Source of the DNA: a virus | Strand: one strand, 5' to 3' | Length of the DNA stretch: 59,302 bases | IMG/VR virus record: IMGVR_UViG_3300031416_000008 | Coordinates: 1-59,302 of that record | In this document: piece after piece, positions 13,184 through 43,900 of the stretch | How positions within the stretch are numbered: position 1 is the stretch's first letter | How the letters are laid out: each line of letters starts with the position of its first letter | Program-made: the position numbers and the translations under genes | The notes under the pieces: model-generated | The model's database searches: none | What the model was told of the DNA's origin: nothing | Seen by the model: only the letters and a program-made list of their open reading frames with translations

Positions 13184-13615
13184 ATGTCATCGCCGGTTCT
13201 CGACCTGAGAGCGCGCGCCTTTATGTATGAGCGCGGCGACATCACCCTAATCGGATCGTGGTTACGCATGGGCGGAAATCTTCGCCCGTGTTTGGTTCTT
13301 ATCCGCTCCGGAGAGGAATACAGCGACCACACAGTGCCATGTGTCGTGACGCTTGATAAAGCTTGGATATGGGACGAAGACGAAGGCGACCCAAAAGAGG
13401 CCGCTCGTACGGCTGCGAACTTCGTAGAAAAGCTGCGGCTTACACACAGCCTGCAATCCTGCATCCGCATTGCATCGCTTATTCACGACCATCTGGACGA
13501 TCTTATTCAAATGCCTCCGTTCCCCCCGATGGACCGCGAGACCGTCGCATTCATCGAGCAGGTGAACAACAAGACGGGCAAGACAAAGCACATCGAGGTC
13601 AAAGACTATGTTTGA
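13184..13615 (+). CDS. Hypothetical protein between terminase and portal
   Basis: GAGGAG SD. 3' end overlaps the portal start. Confidence 0.55.
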   Translation: MSSPVLDLRARAFMYERGDITLIGSWLRMGGNLRPCLVLIRSGEEYSDHTVPCVVTLDKAWIWDEDEGDPKEAARTAANFVEKLRLTHSLQSCIRIASLIHDHLDDLIQMPPFPPMDRETVAFIEQVNNKTGKTKHIEVKDYV

Positions 13616-15962: not shown

Positions 15963-16883
15963 ATGAGCGAACGACTGACAGAAGAAGAACTGGCACATAT
16001 GACGCCAGCCGAGCGCGAAGGCTATGAACTCATGCTGGCAGAAGAAACCGAGCAGGATGATGACGCCGACGACGAAAACAATGATGCATTGGATGATGGC
16101 GATGATGACGCCGGCGCCATTGACGACGATCAAGAGCTCGGTACCGATGGATCAGAAACGGGGACTGATGCCGCCGCGCCTGATGAGCAGCTCCAAACGC
16201 AAAGCGATGCGCCTGAACTCGCCGCCGCCGCAGATCACGTCAAGTACCCTTATGAAGCACATAAGACAGTCAGTGACTTAAGAGAGAAAATCGAAGCTAA
16301 CGAAGCTCAGCAGAATGCTTTGCTTGAGCAGTTCGATGACGGTGAACTTACTCGCGAAGAATACCAGGAGCAGCTGAAAACGCTCAACGCCGAAAGCCGA
16401 CAATTCGTAAAGGATCAGGCAAAGGCAGAAACCGCGATTGAAGAAGCTGACGCCCGATATTTTGAGGACGTCGGCACCTTCTTGTCCGAGAACCCGATGT
16501 ATAAAAAGGGCGGGCTACTATACAACGCCCTGGACGAAAAGGTTAAGGAGCTGCAGGCTCAATCCGACGATCCGCGTTCTCCCGCGATCATTAGGGAGGC
16601 CCACAAGCAGATTCAGGACGAGCTGGGGCTCAAATCCGATGCTCCGCCTAAGCCAAAGAGCGACGCAAATCCCGCCAAGCAAACGGCAAAACCTAAGCCG
16701 AAGCGCGAAATTCCTCCAAACCTCAACGGTATCCCATCGTCTGATGTGAATGACGCGGCAGACGATAACGGACGGTTCGCTGTCCTTGCGCGTATGGCTA
16801 AATCTGACCCGCTTGAGCATGAAAAGGCGCTCGCAAAGATGAGCGACGCCGAGATGGATGAATATCTACGGTACGGTGGCTGA
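15963..16883 (+). CDS. Scaffolding protein (acidic, helical)
   Basis: Lies between portal and capsid genes. Asp/Glu-rich N-terminus and coiled-coil middle. Confidence 0.6.
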   Translation: MSERLTEEELAHMTPAEREGYELMLAEETEQDDDADDENNDALDDGDDDAGAIDDDQELGTDGSETGTDAAAPDEQLQTQSDAPELAAAADHVKYPYEAHKTVSDLREKIEANEAQQNALLEQFDDGELTREEYQEQLKTLNAESRQFVKDQAKAETAIEEADARYFEDVGTFLSENPMYKKGGLLYNALDEKVKELQAQSDDPRSPAIIREAHKQIQDELGLKSDAPPKPKSDANPAKQTAKPKPKREIPPNLNGIPSSDVNDAADDNGRFAVLARMAKSDPLEHEKALAKMSDAEMDEYLRYGG

Positions 16884-17077
16884 TGCTGTCACTGTCAGTA
16901 CGGATAGGTCAGGCCGTCCAGATCGGGGAGGCGGCTGTTGTAAAGGTCGAGGACAAGCAGGGCCGTGGCGTCAAGCTTGTGTTTGCGACGGATATTTCCC
17001 CGATACGCATCTTGGATGACGGTGTAATCCCGCCACGATTCACTCGCGGGATTACAGGACGGCCGCGCCCGTATTGA
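16883..17077 (+). CDS. CsrA-like small RNA-binding protein (64 aa)
   Basis: MLSLSVRIGQAVQIGEAAVVKVEDKQGRGVKLVF..ISPIRIL aligns with CsrA [41 protein letters not shown]. TGATG overlap with the scaffold stop. Confidence 0.55.
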   Translation: MLSLSVRIGQAVQIGEAAVVKVEDKQGRGVKLVFATDISPIRILDDGVIPPRFTRGITGRPRPY

Positions 17078-17110
17078 GAGGAAATGTCGAATTTGCGAAA
17101 CTGACGAGGG

Positions 17111-17137
17111 AAAGGCCGCAATGTGCGGCCTTTTTGC
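17111..17137 (+). terminator. Rho-independent terminator
   Basis: AAAGGCCGCA-ATG-TGCGGCCTTT followed by further T residues. Confidence 0.75.
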
Positions 17138-17273
17138 GTTTGGAATTTTAACAAATCAGCCACTTGCATATTCTATGCAAAGTACGTATATTACGTAATG
17201 CCAGCAAGAAAGGGAAATGAGCTGGTTTAAATATTACAAGTGGAGTCATTCCCAAAGAGGAAGTTACAAACCG

Positions 17274-17519
17274 ATGAAAACTTACAGCTTCTCAGAAATG
17301 AACCGAGCATCCGGTGACATTCTGGATGCAGCTTTGGCGGAGCCAGTAGCTCTGACAAAAAGAGGAAAGGAGAAACTCATTATCGTTTCCACAGACGTGT
17401 GGGAAAAAGTACTAAATCGCGCAAAATCTAAGGCTTACACCCTAGAGAACGCACCTCAAAACAGCTTCGATCAACTTATGGGAGGACTAGAAGAAAATGT
17501 TCGAAACTCCCCCAGATAG
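17274..17519 (+). CDS. Phd/YefM-type antitoxin
   Basis: MKTYSFSEMNRASGDILDAALAEPVALTKRGKEKLIIVS is the Phd/YefM N-terminal fold signature. Confidence 0.7.
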   Translation: MKTYSFSEMNRASGDILDAALAEPVALTKRGKEKLIIVSTDVWEKVLNRAKSKAYTLENAPQNSFDQLMGGLEENVRNSPR

Positions 17520-17532
17520 GGATTAACAACGG

Positions 17533-17937
17533 ATGAAATTCGACGTCGGTGATATTATTGAATACAGTTACCTTTGGGCCCGTGAGGCGGCCAAGGGAGA
17601 GGAGAGCGGGAGAAAATATCGCCCGACATGTATGGTGTTTAAAACGAAAGAGGACCCTGCAAAGCTCTTTCTTTTTCCAATTACTTCTCAAGAGCCCAAG
17701 GACGGACGGCCTTACAAAGTCATCCCACAACTTGAATGTAAAAGGGCGAAGCTAAAATATCCCTCTTACATAATTTTGGACGAGTTTAACGAGGACCGTT
17801 CTGACATGATGTTTGATGTGGGGGATACAAAACCTCGCGGAAGTATCAGTCCAAGTTATCTTGCAGAAGTATCGCAGGGAATTATGGACCACGCGGCAAA
17901 AGTGCGCCCCACTTCAGTGCGACGCACAGCTGTCTAA
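17533..17937 (+). CDS. Putative PemK/MazF-like (SH3-fold) toxin
   Basis: GDIIEYSYLW....GRKYRPTCMV....FPITSQ pattern. Starts 13 nt downstream of the antitoxin. Confidence 0.45.
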   Translation: MKFDVGDIIEYSYLWAREAAKGEESGRKYRPTCMVFKTKEDPAKLFLFPITSQEPKDGRPYKVIPQLECKRAKLKYPSYIILDEFNEDRSDMMFDVGDTKPRGSISPSYLAEVSQGIMDHAAKVRPTSVRRTAV

Positions 17938-17943
17938 ACAATC

Positions 17944-17973
17944 AAAGCCCCTGCTCAGTCAGGGGCTTTTGTT
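17944..17973. terminator. Bidirectional terminator between convergent genes
   Basis: AAAGCCCCTG-CTCAGT-CAGGGGCTTT, with an A-run upstream and a T-run downstream. Confidence 0.65.
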
Positions 17974-18224
17974 TATCGGTGAAAGATTTTCTTCGCAGTA
18001 TCGACCGCTTCAACCACATCGTCCTCTTTGTTGTTTTGCAGGTCAAATTTATCGGTTTGGTTGCGCGCTTTACCGTAATCATTCCATTGAATGCGAATTT
18101 TCCCGGATGCAGGTGTGGTTACATAACCCACCAACAAATCTTGATCATCCTGTAAACCAGTGATCATACCCGGGTAGCCACCTTTAGTGGTAATTTCGAT
18201 ATGCTCTATTTGGATAACTGCCAT
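17973..18224 (-). CDS. Hypothetical small protein (83 aa), the only - strand gene in the late arm
   Basis: Isolated ORF with a plausible sequence. Ends at the bidirectional terminator. Confidence 0.45.
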   Translation of the reverse strand: MAVIQIEHIEITTKGGYPGMITGLQDDQDLLVGYVTTPASGKIRIQWNDYGKARNQTDKFDLQNNKEDDVVEAVDTAKKIFHR

Positions 18225-18315: not shown

Positions 18316-18426
18316 AAGAATGAGTGTAGACAATTGCGTACATGCAGTAAGGGTTCATCCCCTGAAAATGCCACGAAATCTCGTATTGCAAAGGGTATGT
18401 TTTCCGGGTAATCATTGCTCCAGTTT

Positions 18427-18471
18427 GCGCATGACGTGCTTCTGACCGATTAATCCGGAGAACACGTCATG
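18427..18471 (+). promoter_or_regulatory. Late leader element 1: box GCGCATGACGTGC plus start-codon hairpin
   Basis: CATGACGTG (18430-18438) is the reverse complement of CACGTCATG (18463-18471, which includes the ATG). Confidence 0.6.
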
Positions 18472-19566
18472 AAAACCGTAATTCCGTTTGGCGATGCCCG
18501 CGCCGTTGCCCGTTGGTCGGGCGCCCTTTTCACTGAAATCATCAAGCGTTCGTATTTTGAGCGCAAGTTCGTGTCCGAGAACGACAACGCTGTTATCCAG
18601 CGCTTGACCGATCTTGAGTCCGAAGCTGGTGATTTGATCCACTTCGACCTTTGCGCCCAGCTCAAGCAGAAGCCGACACCCGGCGATAACCGCATTGAGG
18701 GCAAGGAAGAAGGTCTGAAATTCTATTCAGACAAAATCCAGATCGATCAGCTGCGCCATGCAGTGTCGGCTGGTGGCAAGATGAGCCGCAAGCGTACCGC
18801 TCATGACCTCCGTAAGACGGCTAAAGAACGTCTTGCCGAATACTGGGCGAAGTACATGGACGAAGTGAATTTCGTCTATCTGTCGGGTGCACGCGGCATC
18901 AACGAAGACTTCACCGAAGAAACCACTTATGCCGGCCATGCGCAGAACCCGGTTCAAGCGCCTGACAGCGGCCACCTTATCTATGCCGGTTCGGCGGAAA
19001 GTAAGGGCACGATCACGAACACCATGAAAATGGACCGTGATATCATCGAGCGCGCTGTTGTGCAGGCTCGCATGATGAAGTCGCAGAATCCTGAAAATGC
19101 CAACATGCAGCCCGTGCAGATTAACGGTGAAGCGCACTACGTTTGCGTTATGTCGCCGTATCAGGAATACGACCTCCGCACATCGTCGACTGCTGGTTGG
19201 CTCGAAATCCAGAAGGCTGCGGCTGCTGCCGAAGGCCGCAATAACCCGATCTTCAAGGGCACCCTTGGCATGATCAATAATTGCGTGCTGCACAGCCATG
19301 AAAACGTCATCCGCTTTGATGACTACGGCGCAGGTTCAAACCTCCCAGCTGCTCGCGCTCTTTTCCTTGGCCGTCAGGCTGGTGTTGTCGCTTACGGCTC
19401 TACCGGTGGTCTGCGTTTCTCCTGGAAAGAAGAAACCAAGGATTACGGCAACGAACCTACCGTTGCTGCCGGCATCATCTTTGGTGTGAAGAAGACACGC
19501 TTCAACAATCGCGATTTCGGCGTGCAGGCGCTCGATACCTACGCGACCCGGCCAAAAGCCGCCTGA
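18469..19566 (+). CDS. Major capsid protein (N4-gp56-like family)
   Basis: 365 aa. Pattern W..L..E....S.F..F.......I.RL..L....GD.I.FDL...L.....GD...EG.EE.L.FY...I.ID.LRHAV. Confidence 0.8.
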   Translation: MKTVIPFGDARAVARWSGALFTEIIKRSYFERKFVSENDNAVIQRLTDLESEAGDLIHFDLCAQLKQKPTPGDNRIEGKEEGLKFYSDKIQIDQLRHAVSAGGKMSRKRTAHDLRKTAKERLAEYWAKYMDEVNFVYLSGARGINEDFTEETTYAGHAQNPVQAPDSGHLIYAGSAESKGTITNTMKMDRDIIERAVVQARMMKSQNPENANMQPVQINGEAHYVCVMSPYQEYDLRTSSTAGWLEIQKAAAAAEGRNNPIFKGTLGMINNCVLHSHENVIRFDDYGAGSNLPAARALFLGRQAGVVAYGSTGGLRFSWKEETKDYGNEPTVAAGIIFGVKKTRFNNRDFGVQALDTYATRPKAA

Positions 19567-26292: not shown

Positions 26293-26327
26293 GCGCATGA
26301 CGTGCCTCTTTCGAGAGGATAGTCATG
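26293..26327 (+). promoter_or_regulatory. Late leader element 2
   Basis: Box at 26293-26305. CATGAC pairs with GTCATG (ATG). Inner CCUCU-UUCG-AGAGG hairpin covers the SD. Confidence 0.6.
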
Positions 26328-29487: not shown

Positions 29488-29532
29488 GCGCATGATGTGC
29501 TGACACCTGATTAAGTTGAGGTTCACATCATG
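29488..29532 (+). promoter_or_regulatory. Late leader element 3 (covarying copy)
   Basis: Box GCGCATGATGTGC. CATGATGTG (29491-29499) pairs with CACATCATG (29524-29532). Confidence 0.6.
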
Positions 29533-31938: not shown

Positions 31939-31973
31939 GCGCATGACGTGCTAACCGAGCAGGGTACGTCATG
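31939..31973 (+). promoter_or_regulatory. Late leader element 4
   Basis: Box at 31939-31951. CATGACGT (31942-31949) pairs with ACGTCATG (31966-31973). Confidence 0.6.
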
Positions 31974-34900
31974 GCTATTACACTGGATTCAAACGCTGAT
32001 CTTGATGCTTTCTTTGGCTTGGAAAAAGCCGGAAGCAATTCTCCCGCAACAGACAATCGGGAGACTGACGACAAACGTCCGATCCAGTCTGCATCTACAG
32101 AATCCTCGCGTGTGCCCCGTCTCCAACCTATCGGCATAAACTTTGACGCGCCAAAAGCTTCAAATCCGCCCGCCAGCGCGCCCGAAGCTTCAAAGGCTAC
32201 ACAGACTCAAGAAATCCCATCAGCCCCGCAGGCGACCCAGCCAGCGGAAATATCGGGTGTTTCCGCGCGTGATTGGAATGACGCCGTTAATACGATTATC
32301 GCAGAAGCCGGCGGCGACGGCCCTGTCGGTATGCTTGGCGTTGCGAGCACCATTCGCAACCGTGCAAATATTCGAGGCAAGACAATCGGCGATATCGTCC
32401 GCGCCCCAAGCCAGTTTGAAGGCTTTTATGCGCCGGGCCCTAAAGCCGTGGAAGCGCAGAACAATCCGCAGGTGCGCGCAGAAGCCGAGCAGATCCTTCG
32501 TGGTGTTCTAACCGGAGAATTAAGCGATCCGACAAATGGTGCTGACCACTTCCACGCCAACGGTATTAATCCGAAGTGGGCCAGCTCCATGCCGGAAACG
32601 GCGCGAATTGGTGGCCATGTTTTCTACAACTCCAAGCAGGAAGGTGCACCGCGTCAGGTCGCGTCGATGGACCCCGCTATCGGGCTTGATGAGCCGCGCG
32701 GCAATCGTCGCGGTCTTGCGAACCTCGTTCCCGAACAAAAGGAACCGGAAAACACGAAAACCGGCAGCTTGGCGTTCGTCAACCCCGGTCAGGAAAAGAT
32801 CAACCCCGCATTCGCCTCCGTTCTGCAGGACGTTTCCGCTGACATTGGCAAGGGCCTTGTCATCACTTCCGGATACCGATCGCCTACGCATCGGGTGGAA
32901 GCAGCGAAGAAAAAGCCCGGTCAGCATTCACATGGTACAGCTGTCGATATAAGCTTGAAGGGTATGAACGGCCAGCAGCGTTTCGATCTTGTGCAATCGT
33001 TGAAAGCGCGTGGCGTTCGCCGTTTTGGCACCTACTCAAACTCTCCAGATATCATCCACGTCGACATGCTTCCGATGAAGGATTCGAAGGATGGCTTCTG
33101 GTACATGCATAATAAGTCGGTCAATAACATGGGCGGTGCTCCAGATTGGCTAAAAGCAGCGCGCGCAACGCGCGTGAAGCGATATGATGTGCCGCAGGGC
33201 AAGGCTATCGAGGCCGGCGCGGATTTCCGTTTTGATGGCGATCCAGAACCAGTTGCGCAGAAAACACCAGCAACTCCAGAAGTGGAAAGCACTGAGCAGC
33301 CGACCGAAGCTGATCCGATCGACGCGCGCCTCGAAGAACTCAATAAGTCAGAGCCCGGCAAGTACCAGGCAATGACTGAAGACGAATATGCCAAGTGGCG
33401 TGAGGAGTGGGAAGCCAATCAGCCCGGTATTCTACAAGACGTCGCGCGTATGGTCGCCGCTGGGGCTGTCACAGGTACCGCATCAATCATTAAAGGTATT
33501 GGTCGCCTTGATGCAGCCTTCAATGCGAACGTCCTTAATCCACTTTTCGGCACAGAATTTAGCGAAAGCAACGAATACGACGTGCCTGCCGGTTGGGTTG
33601 AGAAGTACGGCGAGGGCATTAAGAAGGGCGTTTCGCAGGCGACCAAAGACGCTATCGAAACCAGTACGCCTGATGGCGATCTATTGGACCCGTCAACTTG
33701 GACGCTCGGTACTAACCCATCGGCAAGGGGCCTTGTTGCCCTAGGGGCTGACGTTTTCGGCTCAATGGTTCCAGTGGTCGCGGCAGCTGTAGCGACCGGC
33801 GGTACGGGCGGATTTATTGCAGGCGGTGCGCAGGGCGCAGGCGGTGCAGAAGATCGGGCCAAGCAGATCATTGATGAGCTCGCAGCAGAGCCCGGCGCGC
33901 TCGAAACTCAGTCTGCTTATTTCCGTGAGCAAATTGCATCCGGAAAATCCCGCGAAGAAGCGATCAAAGCCACTAAGGACGCGGCAGCGAACATTGCGTC
34001 TGTATATGCAGCACCAATTGCGGGTGTTGGTGGCGTACTCACCGGCAAAATTGTTCACCCAGCCACCAATATTCTCGCAAGCAAAGCACTGCCCGCTCGC
34101 ATTGCAGGCCGCGCAGTCGCCGGCGCGTTGGAAGAAGGTTCGCAGGAAGCGCTTGAAACCGTAGGCGCTAACGCTGGCGTCAATCAGGCGATCGGTACTG
34201 ACCTCAACGTCACCGACGGTACATTCGGCGACTTTGTTCTCGGTGCCATGGCGGGCGGCGCTACCGGTGCTGCAGGTGGCGTCACCAGCCGCAGATCAGC
34301 ACCCCAGAGCGAAGCAGCCACGGAAACTCCAGCGGCGGCTCCAGCTTCCGACCCAGTACAGACAACGGCTCCAGAACCACAGGACACACCACAGCGCAAA
34401 GGCCCGCTTTCGCGCGCGTTCGAGGAATCCGCGTCACGTACTGATCTCGAATACGTCGTCAACGATCCAGATATCGATGGTAGCGGGCCCGGCGAAATTC
34501 ACGGTCAGACTGTTCAGATATCGGCCAATCAGGATCGGGTGCCAGCAGGGATGCGCCGCGTCATCGATCAGAGCGGCGTAGAACGCGTCATTGGCGATCG
34601 GGTACTGATGCCTTTGACACAAGCGCAGGAAGCCGGAATCCGTCCAGCCGATCGCACTACTGCGACAAGCGTCCAGTCAGGTAAAGGCGCTCCAACCGTC
34701 GGGTCAACAGTTAATGTTACTTTGCCAGACGGCAGCTCCATTCGCGGCACAGTTGATAGTTACGCCGATGGTGAAGCGGTTATCACTGATGAAGTCGGCG
34801 AAGTGTTTCAGGTTCCGGTTTCGTCTATCGCCGCTCTAGAGGCCGCAGCAGCTGTGAAACCGGGCCAGCTTCCAACCGATGCACTGCCGGAGCGTGATGC

Positions 34901-37900
34901 AGACGCGCAGGACGAGTTGCCAGCGCAACCACCAATGGCTTCCGAAACCACTGTCGAAGAAGACGTTGCGCCCGTCGATCGGCAGAAGAATATTGTTTCC
35001 GCTGAAAACGCGCCCAAGGTTGGCCAGAGCGTTATTGTAAATGCGCCTGGCTTAAAGCGGGTTACCGGCAAGATCGAACAGTACGTTTACGAGGACGAAG
35101 AATACCAGGCTATCGTTCGCGAGAGCGGCGGCATGACAATTCAGGTTCCGATCGAGCATCTGTTTGTCGATTCTACGACCAATAAGCAGGCCGATGCGGA
35201 GGAGTTGCGCAGGAATCCGCCTGTTGATCGTCCTGACATTGACCCCAACGAACCGCGTGTCCGTAAATTTGGAGACAAGGCGGTCCGTCTGCCCGATGAT
35301 GAGTCACAGCGTATATTCGATCTTGGTCAAAACCGGGCGATGGCCAAGCGCCTGCTGGGTACGTCTGAACTTGATAAAGATCGAGCAGCTGTGCCGGCAC
35401 AAAAAGCGCTGGCTGATGAACTTGGTATTTCTTTTGAAGACGCCGGCAAGCTGGCTGATGATTATCGGTACCGCGTCGAAAAAGCCGGTAAGCAGGCACG
35501 ATCGAAACTACCTGTCGAAATGCACTCAGTTAATCCCGTCATGCTCGATCGGATGCGCAAGCGGGTAGAAAGTCAGACAACAGCCGAGCCGGCGCCCGCA
35601 GTCACAGAAGTTTCGGTTGAAGCTGCTGAACCGGTATCGAAAGTCGAAACGCCACAGGTAACGGGCACCGACACAGAGACATGGTACAATTCCATGTCAG
35701 AAACAGATCGTGCCGCCACGCTTGCCAAATCGGGCATTAAGCGCTCGCCGAAAGCACCATTCGATAAGCTGTCGCCGAAAATCCAGCAGACGTTGAATAA
35801 GCAGCGTCAGGTTGAAAGCGAAGCACAGCAAGCCCCGATCGACATTGCGGCCGTACAAGCAGCGACGCATCCGGACAACGACATTGCGGAACCGACGCTC
35901 GCGCAGAAAGAAGCCGGAAATTATGCCAAGGGCCATGTGCGTTTAGGTGGCATGGATTTGTCGATCGAAAATCCAGCGGGCTCCGAACGCAAAGGCGTAG
36001 ATGCCACCGGCAAAGAGTGGTCCACAACGATGCAGGGCCACTACGGCTACATCAAAGGCACCATTGGCCGCGACAAAGACCACATCGACGTTTTTGTTAA
36101 GCCGGGCACCGCTGACGTTTCCGACACAGCGCCGGTTTTCGTGGTTGACCAGAAAAACCCAGACAATGGCCGATTTGACGAACATAAGGTCATGATCGGT
36201 TATGATAGCCAGCAGGAAGCCGAAGCAGCATATTTGGCGAACTATACGCCTGGTTGGAAAGGCATGGGCGACGTTACAGAAACAAGCCTTGCCAACTTCC
36301 GGAAATGGACCAAAGATGGCGACACCACAAAAGCTTTCGCTCCGAAGTGGTTTGGCACGCGAGAAAAGGCAGATGCCTACGTCGCGAAGAACAACCTTTC
36401 AGATACGCACTCTGTCGTAGAAAACGGCAAGCGCTTTGAAGTCCGTCAGGCTTCCGACAATGCTGCACAAACTGCAAAACCGGCGAATAATATTCAAAAT
36501 CGTTCCAACAACGATTTGGAACGCTTGAAAAACGATTACCGCCGCCAAGTTGCCGAGGCTCCTTTCGCTGACGTTTGGGGATCAGATCGCGAGCCCGTTT
36601 ATGACGCACTGTCACAGCTGGCGGAAAAATCGCCGCTAAAAGACAGGGAGATTGTTTACGCGGTACGTGAAAATGCCAGTGATGCGGACCTCTTGAGTGC
36701 AGCTGCTCGGACGTTCGGCGTTGGCGGCGCTGGCGGCAACAAGTACATGGTTGAAACCCGCGAAGGGCCGACTGTCACTGTCACGTTAGAAAAAGATAGT
36801 GGGCCAGAAAAGATTGTCCTCAAGGGCAAAAAGCTGGCTGACACTCTGCGGCGCGAATTTACCCGTACCGTAGAGGAAATGCGTGAAGATGCGATACGCG
36901 CGGGAAAAACGCGCGCATTCATCGACAAGAAAAAGGCGGAACACAGAGAAAAGACTGCGAGCAAAAATAGCAGTGCGTTGGTGGGTGAGCCGCTTCCCAC
37001 GCGCGGTGTTGCGCCCGCCAATATAGGTAGTGACGGCAATACCTACGTCGGAAAGCCCGGCGGTGTTCATTTCGAGATTAAAAGGCCTGACGGCGTGGAA
37101 TGGACCGATATCGGTTTTGTAAATCCATCCGGTCAATTCCTTGATCGCAAACAAGCGTTTGAATGGGTCGAGCAGAATGAACAGCGTGTCCGCCCCTCAG
37201 ACAATATGGACGCATCCCTCGATGCGCTCGATTATCGTGAGCAGGTTCCAGAGCGAGTGCGAAAGTCGGGCAAAAAAAACGCAGAAAAGCTCGACACCCT
37301 AATCGACACTGGTCAGCTGACCGCCGCATCCGATTGGGGCGCTTCCAATAAATTAGTTTCACGCGATCGAGCAGATGAAATACGTAAGAAGCTCCGCGCG
37401 AAACTGAATGGTCAGATAAATTCGGGCATTGATCCGGAAATTCTAGCGCTGGGAACCGAGCTCGCGGCATTCCACATCGAGGCCGGTGCGCGTAAGTTTA
37501 CAGACTTTGCACGCGCTGTTGCTGTAGACATGGACGCAAGCATTGAAAAGCTTCGCCCATTCCTACGGGCGTGGTATAACGGCGCGCGCGACATGATGGA
37601 GGATTCCGGGCTTGATATTTCAGGCACCGATGATGCCAATGCTGTAAAGAGCGCACTCGCAACGCTAAAGGACGTGGACGATGGAAGCCTTTCAAAACTG
37701 GAAACGAGAAGCGGAGCTGCATTGGAAGCAGTTTCAGCCGAACCGTTACAAGGAACTGAAAGCGGGCGGAAAGCTCGATCAGGCGTTGACCGAAGCGGCC
37801 AATCAGACAGCACTGGAAATGAACCAGCTGACGGAAAGCGGCTTCCAGCCGGACGAAGCGTTTCAGATGGTGAGACAGAACTATCTGTTCCCGCCAGAGG

Positions 37901-40900
37901 AAGGCAGCGAAATGAGCGTACCAGAAATGGGCCAGACCTCTTTGAGCGAGCAGATGACAAACGCAGTCCGGAAGGGCAGCAGGACAATGGACCTGTAGGC
38001 GAAAAGCCGCTTTCCGACTCCGTAAATCCCGAGAAACGTGTATCGCCGGACGATTCAGCAGCCACACCTGCACATAATCGTCCGGATGGGTTCACCATTA
38101 CGGATGAAGATGCAATCGGCGCTGGCGGACCAAAAACCAAGTTCCGCAATAACGTTGATGCCATCAAGCTTCTTCGAAAGCTCACAGAAGAAGGTCGGAC
38201 GGCGAGTCACGCAGAACAGAAGGTTCTTGCGAAATGGGTAGGCTGGGGCGGTTTGCAGCAAGCATTCGTGCGTCCGGACGGTTCCAAGGCCAAAGGCTGG
38301 GAAAAAGAAGCTGATAGTCTCAAGGAACTGCTCACGCCCGAAGAATACCGCGCGGCAGAAGCCTCAACCCGCAACGCCCATTACACCGCACCTGAAATCA
38401 CCAAAGCTATTTGGAAGGTTGCGCAGCGGCTTGGTTTCCGTGGTGGTCGCGTGCTTGAGCCTTCCGTTGGTTCAGGTAATTTCCTCGGACTGGCTCCGGG
38501 AGAACTGAAACACCGCGCGCAGTTTACCGGCGCGGAATTAGACCATATTACGGGTGGCATCGCGCAGCAGCTCTATCCGGCAGCTAACATCAAAGCTCCT
38601 GTGGGTTTTCAGGAGTTGCAGATCCCGGACAATTATTTTGAGTTGGCCGTTGGCAATCCGCCATTTGGCAGTGAACGCCTTTACGACGCGCAGCGCAAGG
38701 AAGCTGCGAAATTCTCCATACATAATTACTTCTTTGCAAAATCCGTCGACACATTGAAGCCGGGCGGAATTTTGTCGATGGTAATCACAAACTCATTCCT
38801 TGATGCGGCAAAGTCCGCAGCACGTCGATACATCGCGGAACGTGCCCGGCTCGTCGGTGCAATTCGTCTGCCGAACAACGCCTTCCTTGCGAACGCTGGA
38901 ACGGAAGTCACTACCGATATCGTCGTTCTTCAAAAATACCCAGAAGGCACTGCACAGGCGGACAAGGATTTCTCTTGGGTTGACGTCGGCAATTATCGTG
39001 ACGCGCAAGGGCGCGACACGCCGCTTAATCAGTATTTTGTCAGCAATCCCGATATGATGCTGGGCGACTTCGGCCGCTACGGCACAATGTATGGCCCAGA
39101 GCAGCCCGCGCTTATTTCGCGTAACGGCGATAATCTTTCGTCCCTGCTCGACAAGGCTATTAATTCGTTGCCGGCTGAAATTATGCCGACACGAACGATT
39201 GAGGAAATAACAGAGTCCGCGGTAAAGCGGGAACTCGATCCCGTCGCTGTGCCCGTCGGCTCTTTTGTTACCGACGCGGATGGGAATATTTCGGTGCGAG
39301 CCCCAGACCTGTTGGGGGAAACACGCGTTATCCCGCGTGCTGATATTACCGGTAAAGATAAGCAGCGCATTTCCGGACTTGTGGCGCTTCGCGACATATT
39401 CACCAACTTGCGCCGCGCTCAGATCGATCCGAACAGCACTGACGCTCAGTTGAATGCGCAGCGCCAATCGCTGAACGAAGCCTATGATGCTCTGACGAAA
39501 GAGTTTGGCCCGATAAACAGCGAAATGAACCGCCGGGCATTTCAAGATGATCCAACATGGCCGCAAGTTTCGGCGTTGGAAATTTCCTATGACAAAGGCC
39601 TCACACGTGAAGCCGCTAAAAAGACTGGCGAAACACCACGTAAACCGAGCGCGGTAAAGGCTCCAATATTTGAGCGCCGCACGCAAGAACCATACAGCCG
39701 TCCGCAGACTGCAAACACCGCAAAAGACGCGCTTGCTATTGCTATGTCGGAATCGGGCTTTGTGGACATGGCTCGCGTTCTTGATCTTTACCGCAAGCCT
39801 GTTTCAGAAGTTGTCGCAGAGCTCGGCGATCAAATCTACATGGCACCGGATGGCGGATTTCAAACCGCCGATATTTATCTATCCGGAAATGTGAAACAGA
39901 AGCTCGCCCGCGCCGAAGAAGCAGCAAAGCTTGATCCAGCCTTTGAGCGAAACGTTTTGGCGCTCCGTGACAAAATTCCGGCCGACATTGATCCAGTTGA
40001 TATCGATGTAAAGGCTGGCGCACCTTGGATACCGGGTTCCGATATCGCTGATTTTATCCGCGATACGCTTGAGACAAGTCATGCCAGGGCAATTTATTCC
40101 CGTGGAACGGCTCGTTGGGAGCTAGATGCGGGACGAGCAAGCGACGTTGCACAGGCGAGGTGGGGAACACCTGATGCATCTGCACGTCAGGTTGTTGAAG
40201 CGGCCCTGAATGCGCGCACAATAACAATCAGCCATAAAAATGCAGACGGTTCCGTCACGGTAGACGAAGCCGCGACTGACGCTGCAAATCAGAAGGTGGA
40301 AGCGGTTAAAAACGAGTGGAAACGCTGGATTTGGGACAACGATGCCCGCCGCGAAAAGCTTTCCCGTCTCTACAACGATACGTACAACACCCACGTCGAT
40401 ACCGTCTATGATGGTTCGCATTTGATTTTGCCAGGCAAAGTCAGCGATGACGTTGTTGAATTACGTCCGCATCAGAAATCATTTATCTGGCGCGTTTTGC
40501 AGTCGTCGACCACTCTTGCCGACCATACAGTCGGTGCCGGTAAAACGTTCGCGGCGATCGGTGCGGTTATGGAACTTCGCCGCACCGGGCAGGCAAAAAA
40601 ACCGATGGTCGTCGTGCCTAACCATCTTGTGCAACAGTGGTCAGCTGATTTTATCAAGTTGTATCCGGGCGCAAATATTCTCGCGGCGACCAAGAAAGAT
40701 TTTGAAGCTGGCAACCGGAAGCGTTTCTTTGCGCGCGTCGCAGCAGGTGACTATGACGCCGTTGTGGTTGCACATTCGTCTTTCGGGCTCATCGGTGTTG
40801 ATCCGATGTTTGAGCGCGACTTCCTGCAAATGCAGGTGGCCGATATTGAAGACTCCATTCGCACGCTTGAGGAAGCGGAAGGCAAATCCAGCCGTAGCGT

Positions 40901-43900
40901 AAAGCAAATGGCAAAGCAGCGGGAAACCATTCAGACCCGTATGCAGAAGCTTCTGGATGCTGGAAGCAAAGACACCGGGATGACGTTTGAAGAAATGGGC
41001 GTAGACGCTCTTTTCGTGGACGAAGCCCATGAATTTAAAAATCTCGGTTTCTCAACATCGATGACGCGTGTTGCCGGGCTCGGTAACAAAGACGGCTCGA
41101 AAAAAGCCGCTGACCTGTTCATGAAAATTCAAAGCGTCATGAAGCGCACCGGCGGACGAAATGTCGTGTTCCTGACAGGAACACCGATATCGAACACAAT
41201 GGCCGAGCTCTACACGATGCAGCGCTATCTTGCCTATGATGCGTTGAAAGCGCAGGGCGTGGCGCATTTTGATGCTTGGGCGCGGGTATTCGGCGAAGTC
41301 GTAACAGACTTTGAACTGTCGGCTTCTGGTAAATACAAGCTCACTACGCGTTTCTCGCGCTTTGTGAACATGCCAGAGCTCGTAACGCAGTATCGCGTGT
41401 TTGCAGACACCATCACAAACGATGATATCCGCAGGCAACTTGCCGAGCGCGGTAAAACCCTTCCTCTGCCACGGGTCAAGGGTGACAAGCCTACCGCGAA
41501 CGTCGTTGAACCATCTGAATACCAGACCGACTTTATCGGCAATCCAACCGTGGATGAAAACGGGATCGAGCACTATCCGAGTGGCTCGATTGTCTGGCGC
41601 TCTGAAAATCTGCCTAAGAAGGCGGAGAAGGGCGCGGATAACATGCTCAAAGTCACTTCTGATGCCCGTAAGGCGGCGCTCGATATGCGTCTGATTGATC
41701 CTGAATATCCGGACTTTGCGGGTTCGAAGGTTCACAAAGCCGCAGACAATATCAAAAGCATTTATGACCGCTGGCACAATCAGAAAGGCACCCAGCTGGT
41801 ATTCATCGACCTATCCACCCCAAAAAAGGCGGTGGCCAAGGCACGCGCAGAATTGCTTGAGCTCCAGCGCAAAGCGGATGCCGGCGACGAAGCGGCACAG
41901 ACGAAGCTGGATAACATCAGCCTGGACGAAATTGCAGCGTTGGAATCGTCATTCTCCGTCTACGACGATCTAAAGGCAAAATTGATATCGCGTGGTGTTC
42001 CTGAAAAGGAAATCGCCTTCATTCACGATGCCAATACCGACCTGCAAAAGCAGGAGCTTTTCGGGAAAGTTCGTTCCGGACAGGTTCGTGTGTTGTTCGG
42101 CTCGACGCCAAAGATGGGCGCTGGAACAAACGTTCAGAACCGTCTTGTTGGACTTCATCATCTGGATGCACCGTGGCGCCCAAGCGACCTTGAACAGCGT
42201 GAAGGCCGCATCATCCGTCAAGGCAATGAATTATATGCTCTCGATCCGGACGGTTTCGAGGTTGAAATTCACCGCTACGCCACCAAGCGGACGCTGGACG
42301 CCAAACAGTGGCAGACGATCGAGCAAAAAGCACGTTTCATTGGTCAATTCCGCGCCGGAAATGTGAAAGAGCGCGCCGTAGAGGATATCGGAGGAGAGGC
42401 GGCAAACTCTGCCGAGATGAAAGCTGCAGCTTCTGGCAATCCGCTCATCCTGGAGGAGATGGAGCTCCGCCGCAAGGTGAAGCGTCTCGAAAACGAGAGC
42501 AGGGAACACGAACGCGGGCAACACTCGACGTCTCGCAATATTCGCGAGCTCGAAAATGAGCAGACGGAAATCAACGAGCGTTCCGAGGCGTTGGCACAAG
42601 ACGCAGATGCAGCGAAAAAATACCTTGCTGGTGAGTTTTCTGCCACGATCAATGGAAAGAGTTTCGAGAAGGCTGGCGATGCCGGCGCAGAAATTCTTGA
42701 TGTTGCACGCGATATGATTACCAGTGGCGCAACAAGTCGCGCTGTGGGCTCCGTTGGCCCGTTCCGTGTAACGCTGCAAAAAGGTTTGGCATCCTCTTTC
42801 CAGATCACGCTCAAGGGTGCGCGGGAATACGACATAAGTTTGCCTGATGTCGGTGAGCTAACGCCTGTGGGCGCATTCATGCGCGTGATGACACCTATTA
42901 GAAATCTGCCTGAACGTCCGGCCTTTGATCAGGAACGGCTATCGACGATAGCGAAAACGCTACCACGACTGAAAGGCGAGCTTTCTGAATGGCAAGGCAG
43001 AGCGGAACTCGACGAGACGCGACAGAAGCACAATAATATCCTTGCCGCCTTGCGTCCTAAAAAGAAGGACGCGCCGACCGTTGAAATTGAAAAAGCCGCA
43101 GAACAGCCGAAAGCCTCAATCGTCGATCGCGAACCAGTAGCACGTTTGACAGGCGAAGAAGTTCTGCCTGGATTCACACCAGACAAAGACATGGGCGCAT
43201 TAATTCGGGCCGCGTCACGTTGGTATAGTGAAAACCTGCAAGGCACGACGACAAAAACCCGCGATGGGGTCACGGTTGATTTTATCCAGAAGGGTAGAGG
43301 CAAAACCACGTCGCGATCAAAAGGCGATAAACTTTTGCGCGCTATCCCTGCTATCCGGGATATTATCGAAAAGGGCGAAGTCGTTCATCGAGAAGCGGGT
43401 ACAAAGGCGAACGTCCTCAATCGAGTAATAATTGCAGCGCCCGTTGAACTGGCCGGTGAAACGCTTCATCTGGCTATTTCTCTGCACGAAACAAACGCAA
43501 AAACCTACCAGTATGACTTCACGTTCAACCGTGAGGCATATCAAGATAGTGATCGAGCTTCCGTTGGAAGTCTTGACGGAGAGACGTGGGTAAATCACGA
43601 AGGGCTTGCCACCCGCGAAGGCGCGCTACCTAGCTTAGAAGTGCCGCTGTCCGCCAAGACAGATATTAATCTAGTCGAATGGACGCCAAAAATCAATAAT
43701 TCTGAGTCCGACGCGCTCCGCACGGCATTGCAGCGTGGCGAATTTGGCACAGAGGTAAATCGCCTGCTCGATAATGGCGCGATCGAGATCGGCAATATTT
43801 CCGATGAAAACGTGCAAGCATGGACACGTCCTGACGGCACGATAGTCCTGAATAGTGCCGTTCTAGCGCCACAAAACGCCAACGCTGTGTTGCTCCACGA

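What the first reader, a model, noticed from the sequence alone, without database searches (positions are those of the whole stretch)
16883..17077. CsrA-like gene translationally coupled to the scaffold gene: a possible trans factor for the late leaders
The 64-aa product aligns along its length with CsrA. It shares the ML-L-R-G-IG start, alternating beta-strand hydrophobics, a central G--V and an Arg in the position of the RNA-binding R44 region. The ATG overlaps the scaffold stop (TGATG), and a strong terminator follows at 17111. It should therefore be made together with the head proteins. CsrA proteins bind GGA motifs in hairpin loops that overlap the SD. Several late leaders present such motifs in or next to their loops: CCGGAGAA, AGAGGAUAG and CGGGAUGC. 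A phage CsrA acting on phage late leaders, or hijacking the host Csr regulon, would make a self-contained post-transcriptional module. The link between the two is my hypothesis only.
Basis: partly seen in the sequence, partly recalled or inferred. Interest (0 to 1): 0.65.

Follow-up and report, generated by a model that had tools for sequence, protein, structure and literature searches.

The report
Phage CsrA-like protein and its leader box
A small phage gene next to the capsid-scaffold gene really does encode a divergent member of the CsrA family of RNA-binding regulators, and it travels through evolution together with a conserved 12-base box at the start of the capsid and other late messages, which makes the unknown job of phage CsrA proteins directly testable.

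Summary
The 64-aa ORF at 16883-17077 is real. It is under strong purifying selection (dN/dS 0.05-0.1), overlaps the upstream stop (TGATG) and is followed by a strong terminator. It has the CsrA fold. Alone it scores below Pfam's cut-off, but a family profile hits RsmE/CsrA at E=1e-9, and the AlphaFold model superposes on CsrA chains at about 1.3 Å.

It is the Brucella/Ochrobactrum version of the 'CsrA-like regulator' already annotated in Bcep22-, GP4- and Parlo-type podophages, and a core gene there rather than a moron. It lies after the putative scaffold gene in 92 of 93 loci.

The Arg44 equivalent is Ile43, and R42 is not conserved. GGA near the SD is at background (28 of 49 genes; 3 of 5 leaders). 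Hijacking a host Csr regulon is unlikely, because these hosts lack csrA.

The core idea gains new support at a different site. A 5' box heads the capsid leader across the clade: GCGCAUGACGUG here (five copies, 0.03 expected), GCGCAGGAGUG elsewhere. It pairs with the start region with abundant covariation. It recurs in F116-like phages that also carry the gene and is absent, with the gene, from three outgroups.

Best reading: the protein binds this box and controls late translation, probably by opening the hairpin. That step is inferred, not shown.

The parts
16883..17077 (+). CsrA-like gene (64 aa), alpha-type subfamily: CsrA beta-core in residues 1-44, Ile at the R44-equivalent, C-terminal GIIPxRFxxGITG motif
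   Evidence: ORF. Pfam CsrA E=2e-4 over residues 1-34. Family profile against RsmE E=9.5e-10. AF2 pLDDT 86, and the Foldseek top 15 hits are all CsrA/Rsm chains. dN/dS 0.05-0.1.
15963..16883 (+). Upstream 306-aa acidic ORF, putative scaffold by position (phrog_8246, unknown function). Its TGA overlaps the CsrA-like ATG at 16881-16885 (TGATG).
   Evidence: Portal-scaffold-CsrA-like synteny is seen in all 13 loci that carry the gene and in 92 of 93 loci overall.
17109..17142 (+). Intrinsic terminator after the CsrA-like gene (GGAAAGGCCGCA-AUG-UGCGGCCUUUUU, then GCGUUU)
   Evidence: RNA fold of 17078-17150: -23.7 kcal/mol, z -3.0. Similar terminators occur in close relatives and in UAM5. The consensus scanner did not list it.
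18386..18414 (+). Sigma-70-like promoter of the capsid transcript (TTGCAA, 17 nt, TAATCA), conserved in relatives
   Evidence: Read from the sequence. The same TTGCA-N17-(G/T)AnAAT arrangement lies upstream of the box in nearly all loci. The transcription start is not mapped.
18427..18438 (+). Leader box 1 (GCGCATGACGTG) of the major capsid gene. Positions 4-12 (CAUGACGUG, 18430-18438) form the 5' arm of the hairpin.
   Evidence: 5 copies against 0.03 expected. Conserved in relatives.
18463..18471 (+). 3' arm of the capsid-leader hairpin (CACGUCAUG), including the capsid start codon at 18469. The SD CCGGAG lies in the loop.
   Evidence: Fold of 18405-18480: -23.5 kcal/mol, z -2.6. Compensatory variants in PBC5, Atu_ph08 and window leader 3.
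26293..26304 (+). Leader box 2, upstream of a 580-aa virion/tail gene (start 26325)
29488..29499 (+). Leader box 3 (GCGCATGATGTG, with a compensating CACATCATG at the start codon), upstream of a 389-aa gene (start 29530)
31939..31950 (+). Leader box 4, upstream of the 5042-aa giant virion protein gene (start 31971)
47188..47199 (+). Leader box 5, upstream of the 260-aa ORF at 47232 (read by eye as a GH108-type endolysin at the head of the lysis cassette). Pairing with the start region is weakest here.
   Evidence: The endolysin and lysis assignment was not tested with any family search.

Best explanation
The ORF encodes a divergent CsrA-fold RNA-binding protein. It is a core gene of the Bcep22/GP4/POI1126 podophage clade, not a host-derived moron. 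It is made from the terminase-portal-scaffold transcript by translational coupling.

Its most likely target is the conserved 5' box that begins the capsid mRNA in every clade member and, in this phage, four more late mRNAs (tail, internal protein, giant protein, lysis). The box is the 5' arm of a hairpin whose 3' arm covers the start codon or the SD-AUG spacer, so the messages are translationally closed by default.

Binding of the protein dimer to the single-stranded box (GCGCA + UGA/GGA) would prevent or melt the hairpin and switch on late translation once portal and scaffold are being made.

Shown: the gene, the fold, the synteny, the box, the hairpin with its covariation, and the co-distribution of gene and box. 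Inferred: that the protein binds the box, and the sign of the effect (activation about 60:40 over repression).
For: CsrA homology and fold:
- All 8 close homologues hit PF02599, as do 46 of 63 family members (best E 4e-11).
- The family profile against PDB returns nine CsrA/Rsm chains on top, RsmE at E=9.5e-10.
- The AF2 model (pLDDT 86) has CsrA chains as its top 15 Foldseek hits, RMSD about 1.3 Å over 44 columns.
- G9, G15 and G27 are near-invariant, at CsrA's own glycine positions.

Real, constrained gene:
- dN/dS 0.05-0.1 at dS 0.6-1.4.
- 89-91% identity to its nearest phage relatives, where the scaffold is only 43-53% and the portal 72-77% identical.

Core gene:
- It lies upstream of the capsid gene in 92 of 93 loci.
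- It stays with portal-scaffold in Atu_ph08, where the capsid gene is 27 kb away on the other strand.
- Per-organism counts of phage records with a window-like capsid region equal the counts of records with the gene.

Box:
- 5 copies on the + strand of the window against 0.03 expected, each after a -10-like hexamer at a variable spacing of 9-16 nt.
- The box is homologous in the capsid leaders of the loci examined from the clade.

Hairpin:
- 49 of 60 unique capsid leaders pair the box with the last 16 nt by independent MFE folding, median z -3.1.
- Box positions 6 and 9-14 each show 2-5 Watson-Crick or G-U pair types, while G7 and A8 are invariant (examples).

Gene and box go together:
- Both are absent from 933W, Vibrio D96a and Paracoccus KLEP18-1, whose capsid proteins are 31-35% identical.
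- Both are present in F116-like H66, in a different gene context. There the box occurs 4 times against 0.11 expected, once inside the 3' end of the CsrA-like ORF and otherwise at ribosome-binding sites.
- In Mwe-JY07 the box overlaps the gene's stop codon.

Partial protein-RNA covariation:
- All 66 loci whose box has GGA have R or K at the R44-equivalent.
- All 16 loci without R/K lack GGA.
- There are about 3-4 independent losses on the capsid tree.

Precedent (from my own knowledge, not checked here): CsrA activates ymdA by opening an SD-sequestering hairpin, protects the 5' end of flhDC mRNA, and phage Mu Com opens the mom hairpin. Knock-down of a phage csrA homologue reduces plaque size (PMC11879866).
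Against: - No binding or expression data exist.
- Gene and box are both ancestral to the clade, so most of their co-occurrence reflects a few evolutionary events: one gain, the F116-like case and three outgroups.
- The R/K-GGA rule has exceptions. PEp14 (R, UGA), Parlo, L072 and L091 (K, AGA), L095 (R, GAA) and L102/103 (K, GUA) keep R/K without GGA. H66 has N at that position although its boxes carry GGA (manual alignment).
- This protein lacks the Arg that canonical CsrA needs for GGA binding, and its box lacks GGA. Any binding therefore uses a specificity that has never been demonstrated.
- In UAM5 only the capsid leader carries the box, so the 'all late genes' reach is specific to the alpha-type phages.
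- The box could be read by the ribosome (the GGA form is SD-like) or by another factor.
- In H66 the box is itself the SD, which would predict repression, not activation.
- Transcription starts are not mapped.
Confidence: 0.45

Rival explanations
1. Same target, opposite sign. The protein is a classical CsrA-type repressor that binds the box (and, as a dimer, possibly the SD region) to limit or delay capsid and late-protein synthesis. It might be relieved by a partner protein bound through the conserved C-terminal GITG motif, by analogy with FliW-CsrA-flagellin control of a major structural subunit.
For: In F116-like H66 the box is itself the Shine-Dalgarno of three genes (GCGCAGGAGUGCGaAUG), which is the classical repressive geometry. 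In many GGA-type leaders a second GGA lies in the SD 30-40 nt downstream. That is within the spacing a CsrA dimer can bridge, a figure taken from my own knowledge of CsrA. A conserved, non-CsrA C-terminal motif exists (G56 near-invariant).
Against: The leaders already carry a stable inhibitory hairpin, which a repressor would make redundant. The second GGA is not conserved and is absent from window leaders 3 and 4. The capsid protein is needed in the largest amounts. No partner protein has been identified.
Confidence: 0.18
2. The box-hairpin works without this protein. It could be a ribosome standby site or decoy SD (the GGA form), a 5'-AUG recognition element (the UGA form), a 5' stem-loop that stabilises the mRNA, or a DNA-level element of the late promoters read by another factor. 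The CsrA-like protein would then have a different RNA target, for example autoregulation or the scaffold and portal messages.
For: The GGA form of the box (CAGGAGUG) is SD-like and its partner (CACUCC) is anti-SD-like. The box always follows a sigma-70-like promoter. Gene-box co-occurrence rests on few independent events, and the R44-GGA rule has exceptions.
Against: The unpaired GCGCA prefix and the G7-A8 dinucleotide are invariant while neighbouring stem positions covary freely. Pairing or SD mimicry alone does not explain that. Spacing to the -10 hexamer varies (9-16 nt), which argues against a fixed promoter element. The box is asymmetric, not a dyad. The same box reappears next to the same gene in F116-like phages with a different gene order. 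It is missing, with the gene, from the outgroups.
Confidence: 0.25
3. Host-directed regulator (moron view). The protein binds host mRNAs or mimics host CsrA to reprogramme metabolism, motility, biofilm or defence during infection or lysogeny.
For: This is how the gene is described in the Lessievirus literature (PMC9144972, PMC10269572, PMC8310193) and what is proposed for mobile-element CsrA in general (PMC7366521, PMC11879866).
Against: Rhizobial hosts, and the Burkholderia hosts of sister phages, have no csrA or Csr system to hijack (PMC7143759, PMC7366521). The gene sits at a fixed place inside the head module in 92 of 93 loci, whereas true cargo varies immediately downstream of it. The protein is among the most conserved products of the head module (89-91% identity, above portal, scaffold and usually the capsid protein) across phages of one host group. 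No sponge RNA is present.
Confidence: 0.1
4. Structural or assembly role. It is a small beta-protein that takes part in procapsid assembly or is packaged in the virion, with the CsrA fold reused for protein-protein or DNA contacts.
For: The gene is adjacent and translationally coupled to the putative scaffold gene. One peptide of the JC1 homologue was detected in purified virions (PMC9144972).
Against: That was a single peptide, which the authors call unconfirmed. POI1126 gp06 is not among the gene products annotated as virion-associated, whereas its neighbours are. The RNA-binding face residues L2, L4 and R7 are retained across the family.
Confidence: 0.07

Closest known systems
CsrA / RsmA / RsmE (PF02599), bacterial post-transcriptional regulators
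   Same: Same size. Same beta1-beta5 protomer fold (Foldseek RMSD about 1.3 Å). Same register of L2, L4, R7, G9, I14, G15 and G27. The family profile hits RsmE at E=9.5e-10.
   Different: Below Pfam's cut-off on its own (21.7 against 27 bits). Ile at the R44-equivalent and Val at R6. No predicted C-terminal helix. Instead there is a Pro-rich segment with a conserved GIIPxRFxxGITG motif. It is encoded in a phage head module whose hosts lack csrA. The presumed RNA site lacks GGA.
'CsrA-like regulator' of Bcep22, BcepIL02, DC1, JC1, CSP3, GP4/Gervaise, Parlo, PEp14 and Skulduggery phages (phrog_8397/9500)
   Same: Orthologous position (portal, scaffold, this gene, capsid gene). Same length. Shared 'AVV.xE.KSGxxxxLxxxxD..PI' core and C-terminal GITG. 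The same box heads the capsid leader.
   Different: Those proteins keep Arg or Lys at the R44-equivalent, and most of their boxes read GCGCAGGAGUG. The Brucella/Ochrobactrum, Sinorhizobium and Agrobacterium versions have Ile/Val/Leu there and GCGCAUGA(C)GUG, are annotated 'hypothetical', and score only weakly against the PHROG models (E 0.0035-0.2). No function has been shown for any of them.
B. subtilis CsrA-FliW-Hag and alphaproteobacterial FlbT-FlaF (translation of a major structural subunit coupled to assembly)
   Same: A CsrA-fold protein encoded among structural genes, with the leader of the most abundant structural subunit as presumed target. Weak Pfam FlbT hits for sister proteins.
   Different: No FliW- or FlaF-like partner was identified. 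The window protein gave no FlbT hit, CsrA being its only Pfam match. The direction of control is unknown.
Phage Mu Com-mom and CsrA-ymdA (translational activation by opening an inhibitory hairpin)
   Same: A small phage-encoded RNA-binding protein, a leader hairpin that occludes the start region, and a conserved protein site on the 5' side of the hairpin. This describes what it may work like.
   Different: Com is a zinc-finger protein, unrelated in fold. For the present system activation is inferred only. The comparison rests on my own knowledge of those systems.

Membership tests
CsrA/RsmA family (PF02599) | Significant sequence-profile match to the family | tested here: met
   On its own the protein is sub-threshold (E=2e-4, 21.7 bits against GA 27, residues 1-34). 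All 8 close homologues and 46 of 63 family members hit PF02599 and essentially nothing else. The syntenic UAM5 orthologue passes GA (29.1). The family profile against PDB returns RsmE at E=9.5e-10 and 8 more CsrA chains.
CsrA/RsmA family (PF02599) | Protomer fold: five beta-strands in CsrA topology | tested here: met
   AF2 with a 78-sequence alignment gives pLDDT 86. The top 15 Foldseek PDB hits are all CsrA/RsmA/RsmE chains, with probability 1.00 for the first 14, TM 0.5-0.8 and RMSD 0.7-1.8 Å for the 13 crystal and cryo-EM chains. E-values are modest (0.03-0.6) because the protein is small.
CsrA/RsmA family (PF02599) | Interdigitated homodimer forming two RNA-binding surfaces (beta1 of one chain with beta5 of the other) | not testable with these tools
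   Only monomer prediction was available. DSSP leaves beta1 and beta5 unassigned in the monomer model, as expected if their partners come from a second chain.
CsrA/RsmA family (PF02599) | RNA-contact residues: L2, L4, R6, R7 (beta1) and V40, V42, R44, I47 (beta5). The list is from my knowledge of the Mercante 2006 and Schubert 2007 work. | tested here: not met
   L2, L4 and R7 are kept (R or K in 75 of 78 sequences). R6 is Val. The R44-equivalent is I43, and is I, L or V throughout the alpha-type subfamily. It is R in 46 and K in 4 of 78 relatives. The feature is partly met in beta1 and not met for the key Arg.
CsrA/RsmA family (PF02599) | Binds GGA motifs, typically in hairpin loops overlapping the SD | not testable with these tools
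   There are no binding data. GGA near the window's SDs is at background. The conserved candidate site in this phage reads UGA, not GGA.
CsrA/RsmA family (PF02599) | C-terminal alpha-helix after beta5 | tested here: not met
   The model shows only a 3-residue turn (51-53), and pLDDT falls to 50-67 after residue 50. The sequence there is Pro/Gly-rich (GVIPPRFTRGITGRPRPY).
CsrA/RsmA family (PF02599) | Antagonist: Csr/Rsm sponge sRNA or FliW | tested here: not met
   No Rfam family of any kind is found in the window at gathering thresholds. No FliW-like gene was noticed. The host chromosome was not searched.
Phage 'CsrA-like regulator' of Bcep22/GP4-type podophages | Homology to the annotated phage proteins | tested here: met
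   tblastn hit to the UAM5 'carbon storage regulator' (38% identity over residues 2-63, E=0.04 against the whole collection, 3e-6 locally). One HMM family joins both groups, with a shared C-terminal GITG. Direct PHROG hits are weak (E 0.0035-0.2).
Phage 'CsrA-like regulator' of Bcep22/GP4-type podophages | Conserved position: immediately after the putative scaffold gene, upstream of the capsid gene | tested here: met
   Window, POI1126, UAM5, Skulduggery, DC1 (one extra gene between scaffold and the CsrA-like gene), PEp14, Parlo and Mwe-JY07. Overall 92 of 93 loci.
Phage 'CsrA-like regulator' of Bcep22/GP4-type podophages | Capsid leader with the GCGCNNGA box and box-start-region hairpin (a feature defined here, not in the literature) | tested here: met
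   The window box at 18427 pairs over 9 bp with the start codon region. 49 of 60 unique leaders do the same.
FlbT (PF07378) | Profile match to FlbT | tested here: not met
   CsrA was the only Pfam family returned for the window protein in the scan at E<=10, so there is no FlbT match. Only the Skulduggery and UAM5 proteins give weak N-terminal hits (E 0.002-0.17, below cut-off).

The most novel reading that the evidence does not exclude
A phage-borne branch of the CsrA family has been retargeted from GGA to a non-GGA 5' box (GCGCAUGACGUG). It acts as an anti-hairpin translational activator, a master post-transcriptional switch. Because it is made with portal and scaffold, it would unlock the capsid, tail, internal-protein, giant-protein and lysis messages in one step, so that assembly order is enforced at the level of translation. 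The protein-box pair would be an ancient, co-evolving module of a large podophage clade (Bcep22, GP4, POI1126, PBC5 and, in another form, F116).
Probability: 0.25. Interest if true: 0.8.

Novelty: new variant of a known kind. Interest (0 to 1): 0.62.

Why it matters
Phage and plasmid CsrA homologues are widespread, yet a 2025 functional-genomics paper states that their role in the phage life cycle had not been tested before (PMC11879866). In Bcep22-like phages the gene is still described as a moron (PMC9144972).

The analysis here moves it into the core head module. It also supplies a concrete, conserved candidate RNA target with natural specificity variants: GGA, UGA or AGA in the box, and Arg, Lys or Ile in the protein. 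That turns an open question into a handful of direct experiments.

If the link holds, it would be a self-contained post-transcriptional timing device for late genes. It would also be a natural example of a CsrA fold with altered RNA specificity, useful for understanding CsrA recognition and as an orthogonal translational switch. If it fails, the leader box-hairpin still stands as an undescribed conserved RNA element. It is not in Rfam.

Tried and rejected
- A single-sequence phmmer search against PDB gave only a chance hit to an ABC-transporter protein.
- The first AF2 run, with 8 near-identical sequences, was poor (pLDDT 62). It was replaced by a 78-sequence run.
- RNAalifold on a MAFFT alignment of 28 leaders missed the long-range hairpin, because the 3' arms sit at variable distances from the AUG and were misaligned. 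I replaced it with per-sequence MFE folding and counting anchored on the box.
- The consensus terminator scanner did not list the 17111 hairpin. Direct folding confirmed it.
- Gill et al. 2011 (PMC3187461) is not held.
- PTXU04, the phage with the csrA knock-down phenotype, is not in this clade: no Escherichia hits. That phenotype is therefore only an analogy.
- The idea that all late leaders across the clade carry the box was rejected. In UAM5 only the capsid leader does.
- A strict Arg44-GGA covariation rule was rejected as universal: see PEp14, Parlo, L095, L102 and H66.
- The 3719-aa protein P0008, top hit of the exhaustive search with 23 repeats, looks from its N-terminal sequence like a repetitive adhesin. 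I set it aside as a probable repeat-driven match without testing it.
- A Rfam search of the window and of the capsid leader found nothing.
Full report
**1. The observation**

The window holds an ATG ORF at 16883-17077 (+) encoding MLSLSVRIGQAVQIGEAAVVKVEDKQGRGVKLVFATDISPIRILDDGVIPPRFTRGITGRPRPY. Its ATG shares one base with the TGA of the upstream 306-aa ORF (ggcTGATGctg). Thirty-two bases after its stop lies a 12-pair GC-rich hairpin followed by UUUUUGCGUUU. The 73-nt stretch 17078-17150 that contains it folds at -23.7 kcal/mol, z -3.0. The simple terminator scanner missed it.

The gene is real and constrained. Against seven orthologues dS is 0.6-1.4 and dN/dS is 0.05-0.12. The protein is 89-91% identical to its nearest phage relatives, where the scaffold-position protein is only 43-53% identical and the portal 72-77%.

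**2. Is it CsrA-like?**

On its own the protein scores below Pfam's threshold for CsrA (E=2e-4, 21.7 against 27 bits). Only residues 1-34 match. PHROG 'CsrA-like regulator' hits are weak, and a single-sequence PDB search gives nothing useful.

The family-level evidence is clear:
- All eight close homologues hit PF02599.
- An exhaustive HMM search finds 81 clusters of 55-110-aa proteins.
- 46 of 63 aligned members hit CsrA, best E 4e-11.
- The family profile finds RsmE at E=9.5e-10, followed by eight other CsrA/RsmA chains, all in the same register.
- With a 78-sequence alignment AlphaFold gives pLDDT 86. The 15 best Foldseek PDB matches are all CsrA/RsmA/RsmE, with RMSD about 1.3 Å over 44 columns.
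- The near-invariant glycines G9, G15 and G27 are CsrA's own.

The C-terminal third differs. There is no helix, but a Pro/Gly-rich tail with a conserved (F/Y)xxG(I/L)(T/S)G motif that canonical CsrA lacks.

Aligned through the syntenic phage proteins, which match CsrA residue for residue (ADKSVPIRR against APKEVSVHR), R42 corresponds to H43 and the R44-equivalent is I43. In HMMER's alternative register it is D45. R42 itself varies (N, S, T, K) in close relatives.

**3. What it belongs to**

The window is a relative of Ochrobactrum phage POI1126 (Namazuvirus), where the orthologue gp06 is 'hypothetical'. Almost the same element is a 59-kb plasmid in Brucella pseudintermedia.

The order portal, scaffold-position gene, small ORF, capsid gene is shared with several phages:
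- Ralstonia UAM5/GP4 ('carbon storage regulator')
- Burkholderia DC1/Bcep22/CSP3
- Serratia Parlo
- Erwinia PEp14
- Pseudomonas Skulduggery
- 'Microcystis' phage Mwe-JY07

In 93 loci with a homologous capsid gene, 92 have the CsrA-like ORF just upstream. Per-organism counts of phage records with a window-like capsid region equal the counts of records with the gene.

In Atu_ph08 the capsid gene has moved 27 kb away to the other strand, yet the small gene stays with portal-scaffold. The stretch between it and the capsid gene is an insertion hotspot with different cargo in each phage. Here the cargo is a Phd/YefM-type antitoxin pair.

So the gene is a core head-module gene, not a moron as the Lessievirus papers call it (PMC9144972, PMC10269572). 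Phage CsrA homologues were catalogued in 2020 (PMC7366521). Their function is unknown. One knock-down in an unrelated coliphage gave small plaques (PMC11879866), and one peptide was seen in JC1 virions (PMC9144972).

**4. The leaders**

Searching with the capsid leader showed that GCGCATGA[C/T]GTG occurs five times, all on the + strand (0.03 expected). The five boxes precede these genes:

| Box start | Gene start | Gene |
|---|---|---|
| 18427 | 18469 | capsid |
| 26293 | 26325 | 580-aa virion gene |
| 29488 | 29530 | 389-aa gene |
| 31939 | 31971 | 5042-aa giant gene |
| 47188 | 47232 | 260-aa ORF at the head of the lysis cassette (endolysin assignment by eye, not tested) |

Each box lies 9-16 nt after a -10-like hexamer. 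Box positions 4-12 (CAUGACGUG) pair with CACGUCAUG, which contains the start codon. The stretch 18405-18480 around the capsid hairpin folds at -23.5 kcal/mol, z -2.6. No box precedes the terminase-portal-scaffold-CsrA-like block.

Leaders 3 and 4 have none. GGA lies within 25 nt upstream of 28 of 49 predicted genes, so that argument carries no weight.

**5. The box across the clade**

The capsid leader begins with a homologous box in the loci examined from the clade:

| Phages | Box |
|---|---|
| Alpha-type, PEp14, Mwe-JY07 | GCGCAUGACGUGC |
| PBC5, Atu_ph08 | GCGCAUGAGUGC |
| Parlo | GCGCAAGACGUGC |
| Skulduggery | GCGCUGGAUGUGC |
| About 66 beta/gamma-type loci | GCGCAGGA(N)GUGY |

Independent MFE folding pairs the box with the last 16 nt before or including the AUG in 49 of 60 unique leaders, median z -3.1. 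Anchored on the box, positions 6 and 9-14 each show several pair types. Position 9, for example, has G-C 34, C-G 10, U-A 4 and A-U 2. G7 and A8 and the unpaired GCGCA prefix do not vary (arm pairs listed).

This is an RNA hairpin with real covariation plus a sequence-specific, largely single-stranded 5' element. It is not in Rfam.

**6. Linking protein and box**

(a) Co-distribution.
- Phages with capsid proteins 31-35% identical (933W, Vibrio D96a, Paracoccus KLEP18-1) have neither a CsrA-like ORF (six-frame HMM search, nothing at E<=1) nor the box.
- F116-like H66 has a capsid protein only 26% identical and a different gene order, yet it has both. GCGCAGGAGTG occurs four times on the coding strand (0.11 expected). 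One copy lies inside the 3' end of the CsrA-like ORF and the other three form ribosome-binding sites.

(b) Adjacency. The box usually lies about 100 nt downstream of the gene. In Mwe-JY07 it overlaps the gene's stop codon.

(c) Chemistry. The common form of the box contains the GGA that CsrA proteins recognise.

(d) Covariation. All 66 loci with GGA in the box have Arg or Lys at the R44-equivalent. All 16 loci without Arg/Lys lack GGA. These map to about 3-4 independent losses on a capsid tree.

The covariation rule is not universal. Several Arg/Lys lineages have AGA, UGA, GAA or GUA boxes. H66 has Asn at that position with GGA boxes (manual alignment). Because gene and box are ancestral to the clade, the number of independent events is small. 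The evidence is suggestive, not decisive.

**7. Mechanism**

Shown: a CsrA-fold protein co-expressed with portal and scaffold, and late leaders that fold so as to occlude their start regions, with a conserved 5' site.

Inferred: the protein binds that site. Because the hairpin is inhibitory by default and the conserved site is its 5' arm plus a single-stranded prefix, I favour activation by hairpin opening. Possible parallels, from my own knowledge, are CsrA-ymdA, CsrA protection of the flhDC 5' end and Mu Com-mom. This would make capsid, tail and lysis synthesis depend on prior expression of the portal-scaffold operon.

The H66 geometry, where the box is the SD, fits classical repression, so the sign may differ between targets. 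The rivals are a protein-independent box (ribosome standby or decoy SD, mRNA stabiliser, promoter element), a host-directed role and a structural role. They are scored in the report sections.

Hijacking a host Csr regulon is unlikely. Rhizobial genomes encode no recognisable CsrA (PMC7143759). Sinorhizobium and the Burkholderia hosts of sister phages lack csrA (PMC7366521).

**8. Verdict**

The gene is a new, divergent variant (R44 lost, new C-terminal motif) of an already annotated phage CsrA-like family.

What is new is the clade-wide leader box and hairpin and its association with the gene. This gives the first concrete, testable target for phage CsrA proteins. I found no description of it in the papers searched, but that search covers open-access literature only.

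Noticed in passing
window 17217-17937 (+), with a bidirectional terminator-like hairpin at 17944-17969: A two-gene cassette sits between the CsrA-like gene and the capsid promoter. It consists of a Phd/YefM-type antitoxin (Pfam E=1e-7) and a 134-aa ORF with no family hit, a possible toxin. Relatives carry different cargo at this spot (POI1126 gp07-09 on the other strand; gaps of 90-1900 nt), so it is an insertion hotspot.
   Followed up: partly
window 17973-18224 (-): An 83-aa ORF on the minus strand just upstream of the capsid promoter. It is conserved (87% identity) in the Brucella sp. contig L014, with no Pfam or PHROG match.
   Followed up: no
whole window; L015 = NZ_CP137607.1 (Brucella pseudintermedia plasmid pOps-OCH-23_4, 59,075 bp); L014: Near-identical elements occur as a complete 59-kb plasmid and as contigs of about 59 kb in Brucella/Ochrobactrum assemblies. 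This POI1126-like phage may persist as a phage-plasmid.
   Followed up: no
window 18386-18414 and the equivalent sites in L001-L104: A conserved sigma-70-like promoter (TTGCA, 17 nt, (G/T)AnAAT, often followed by C..ACCA) precedes the capsid leader box in almost every relative. A host-RNAP promoter combined with a closed leader suggests that late timing is set after transcription.
   Followed up: partly
L108 (Pseudomonas phage H66) 13262, 13716, 19200, 39861: In F116-like phages the extended motif GCGCAGGAGTG(C/A)(G/C) serves as the ribosome-binding site of several late genes. At 19200 it precedes an unannotated ATG at 19215, 22 nt upstream of the annotated start of H66_0055.
   Followed up: partly
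L018 (Agrobacterium phage Atu_ph08) and L002 (Sinorhizobium phage PBC5): In these relatives the late region is rearranged. An integrase and lysis genes sit upstream of the capsid gene, and in Atu_ph08 the capsid block is inverted. The box still heads the capsid, MGKGS-protein, giant-protein and lysis leaders.
   Followed up: partly
window 31971-47099 (+): A single 5042-aa ORF, a giant polyvalent virion protein with lytic-transglycosylase-like, methyltransferase-like and helicase-like stretches by eye. It is led by box 4.
   Followed up: no
P0008 (3719 aa): The best hit of the exhaustive profile search is a giant protein with 23 repeats matching profile positions 2-35. It is probably a repetitive adhesin-type protein rather than a CsrA relative.
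   Followed up: no
window 13184-13615 (+): A 143-aa ORF between the large terminase and portal genes, conserved in POI1126 (gp03), UAM5 and Atu_ph08. It matches phrog_10057, which is labelled 'DNA methyltransferase' (E=8e-50), although it is very small for such an enzyme.
   Followed up: no
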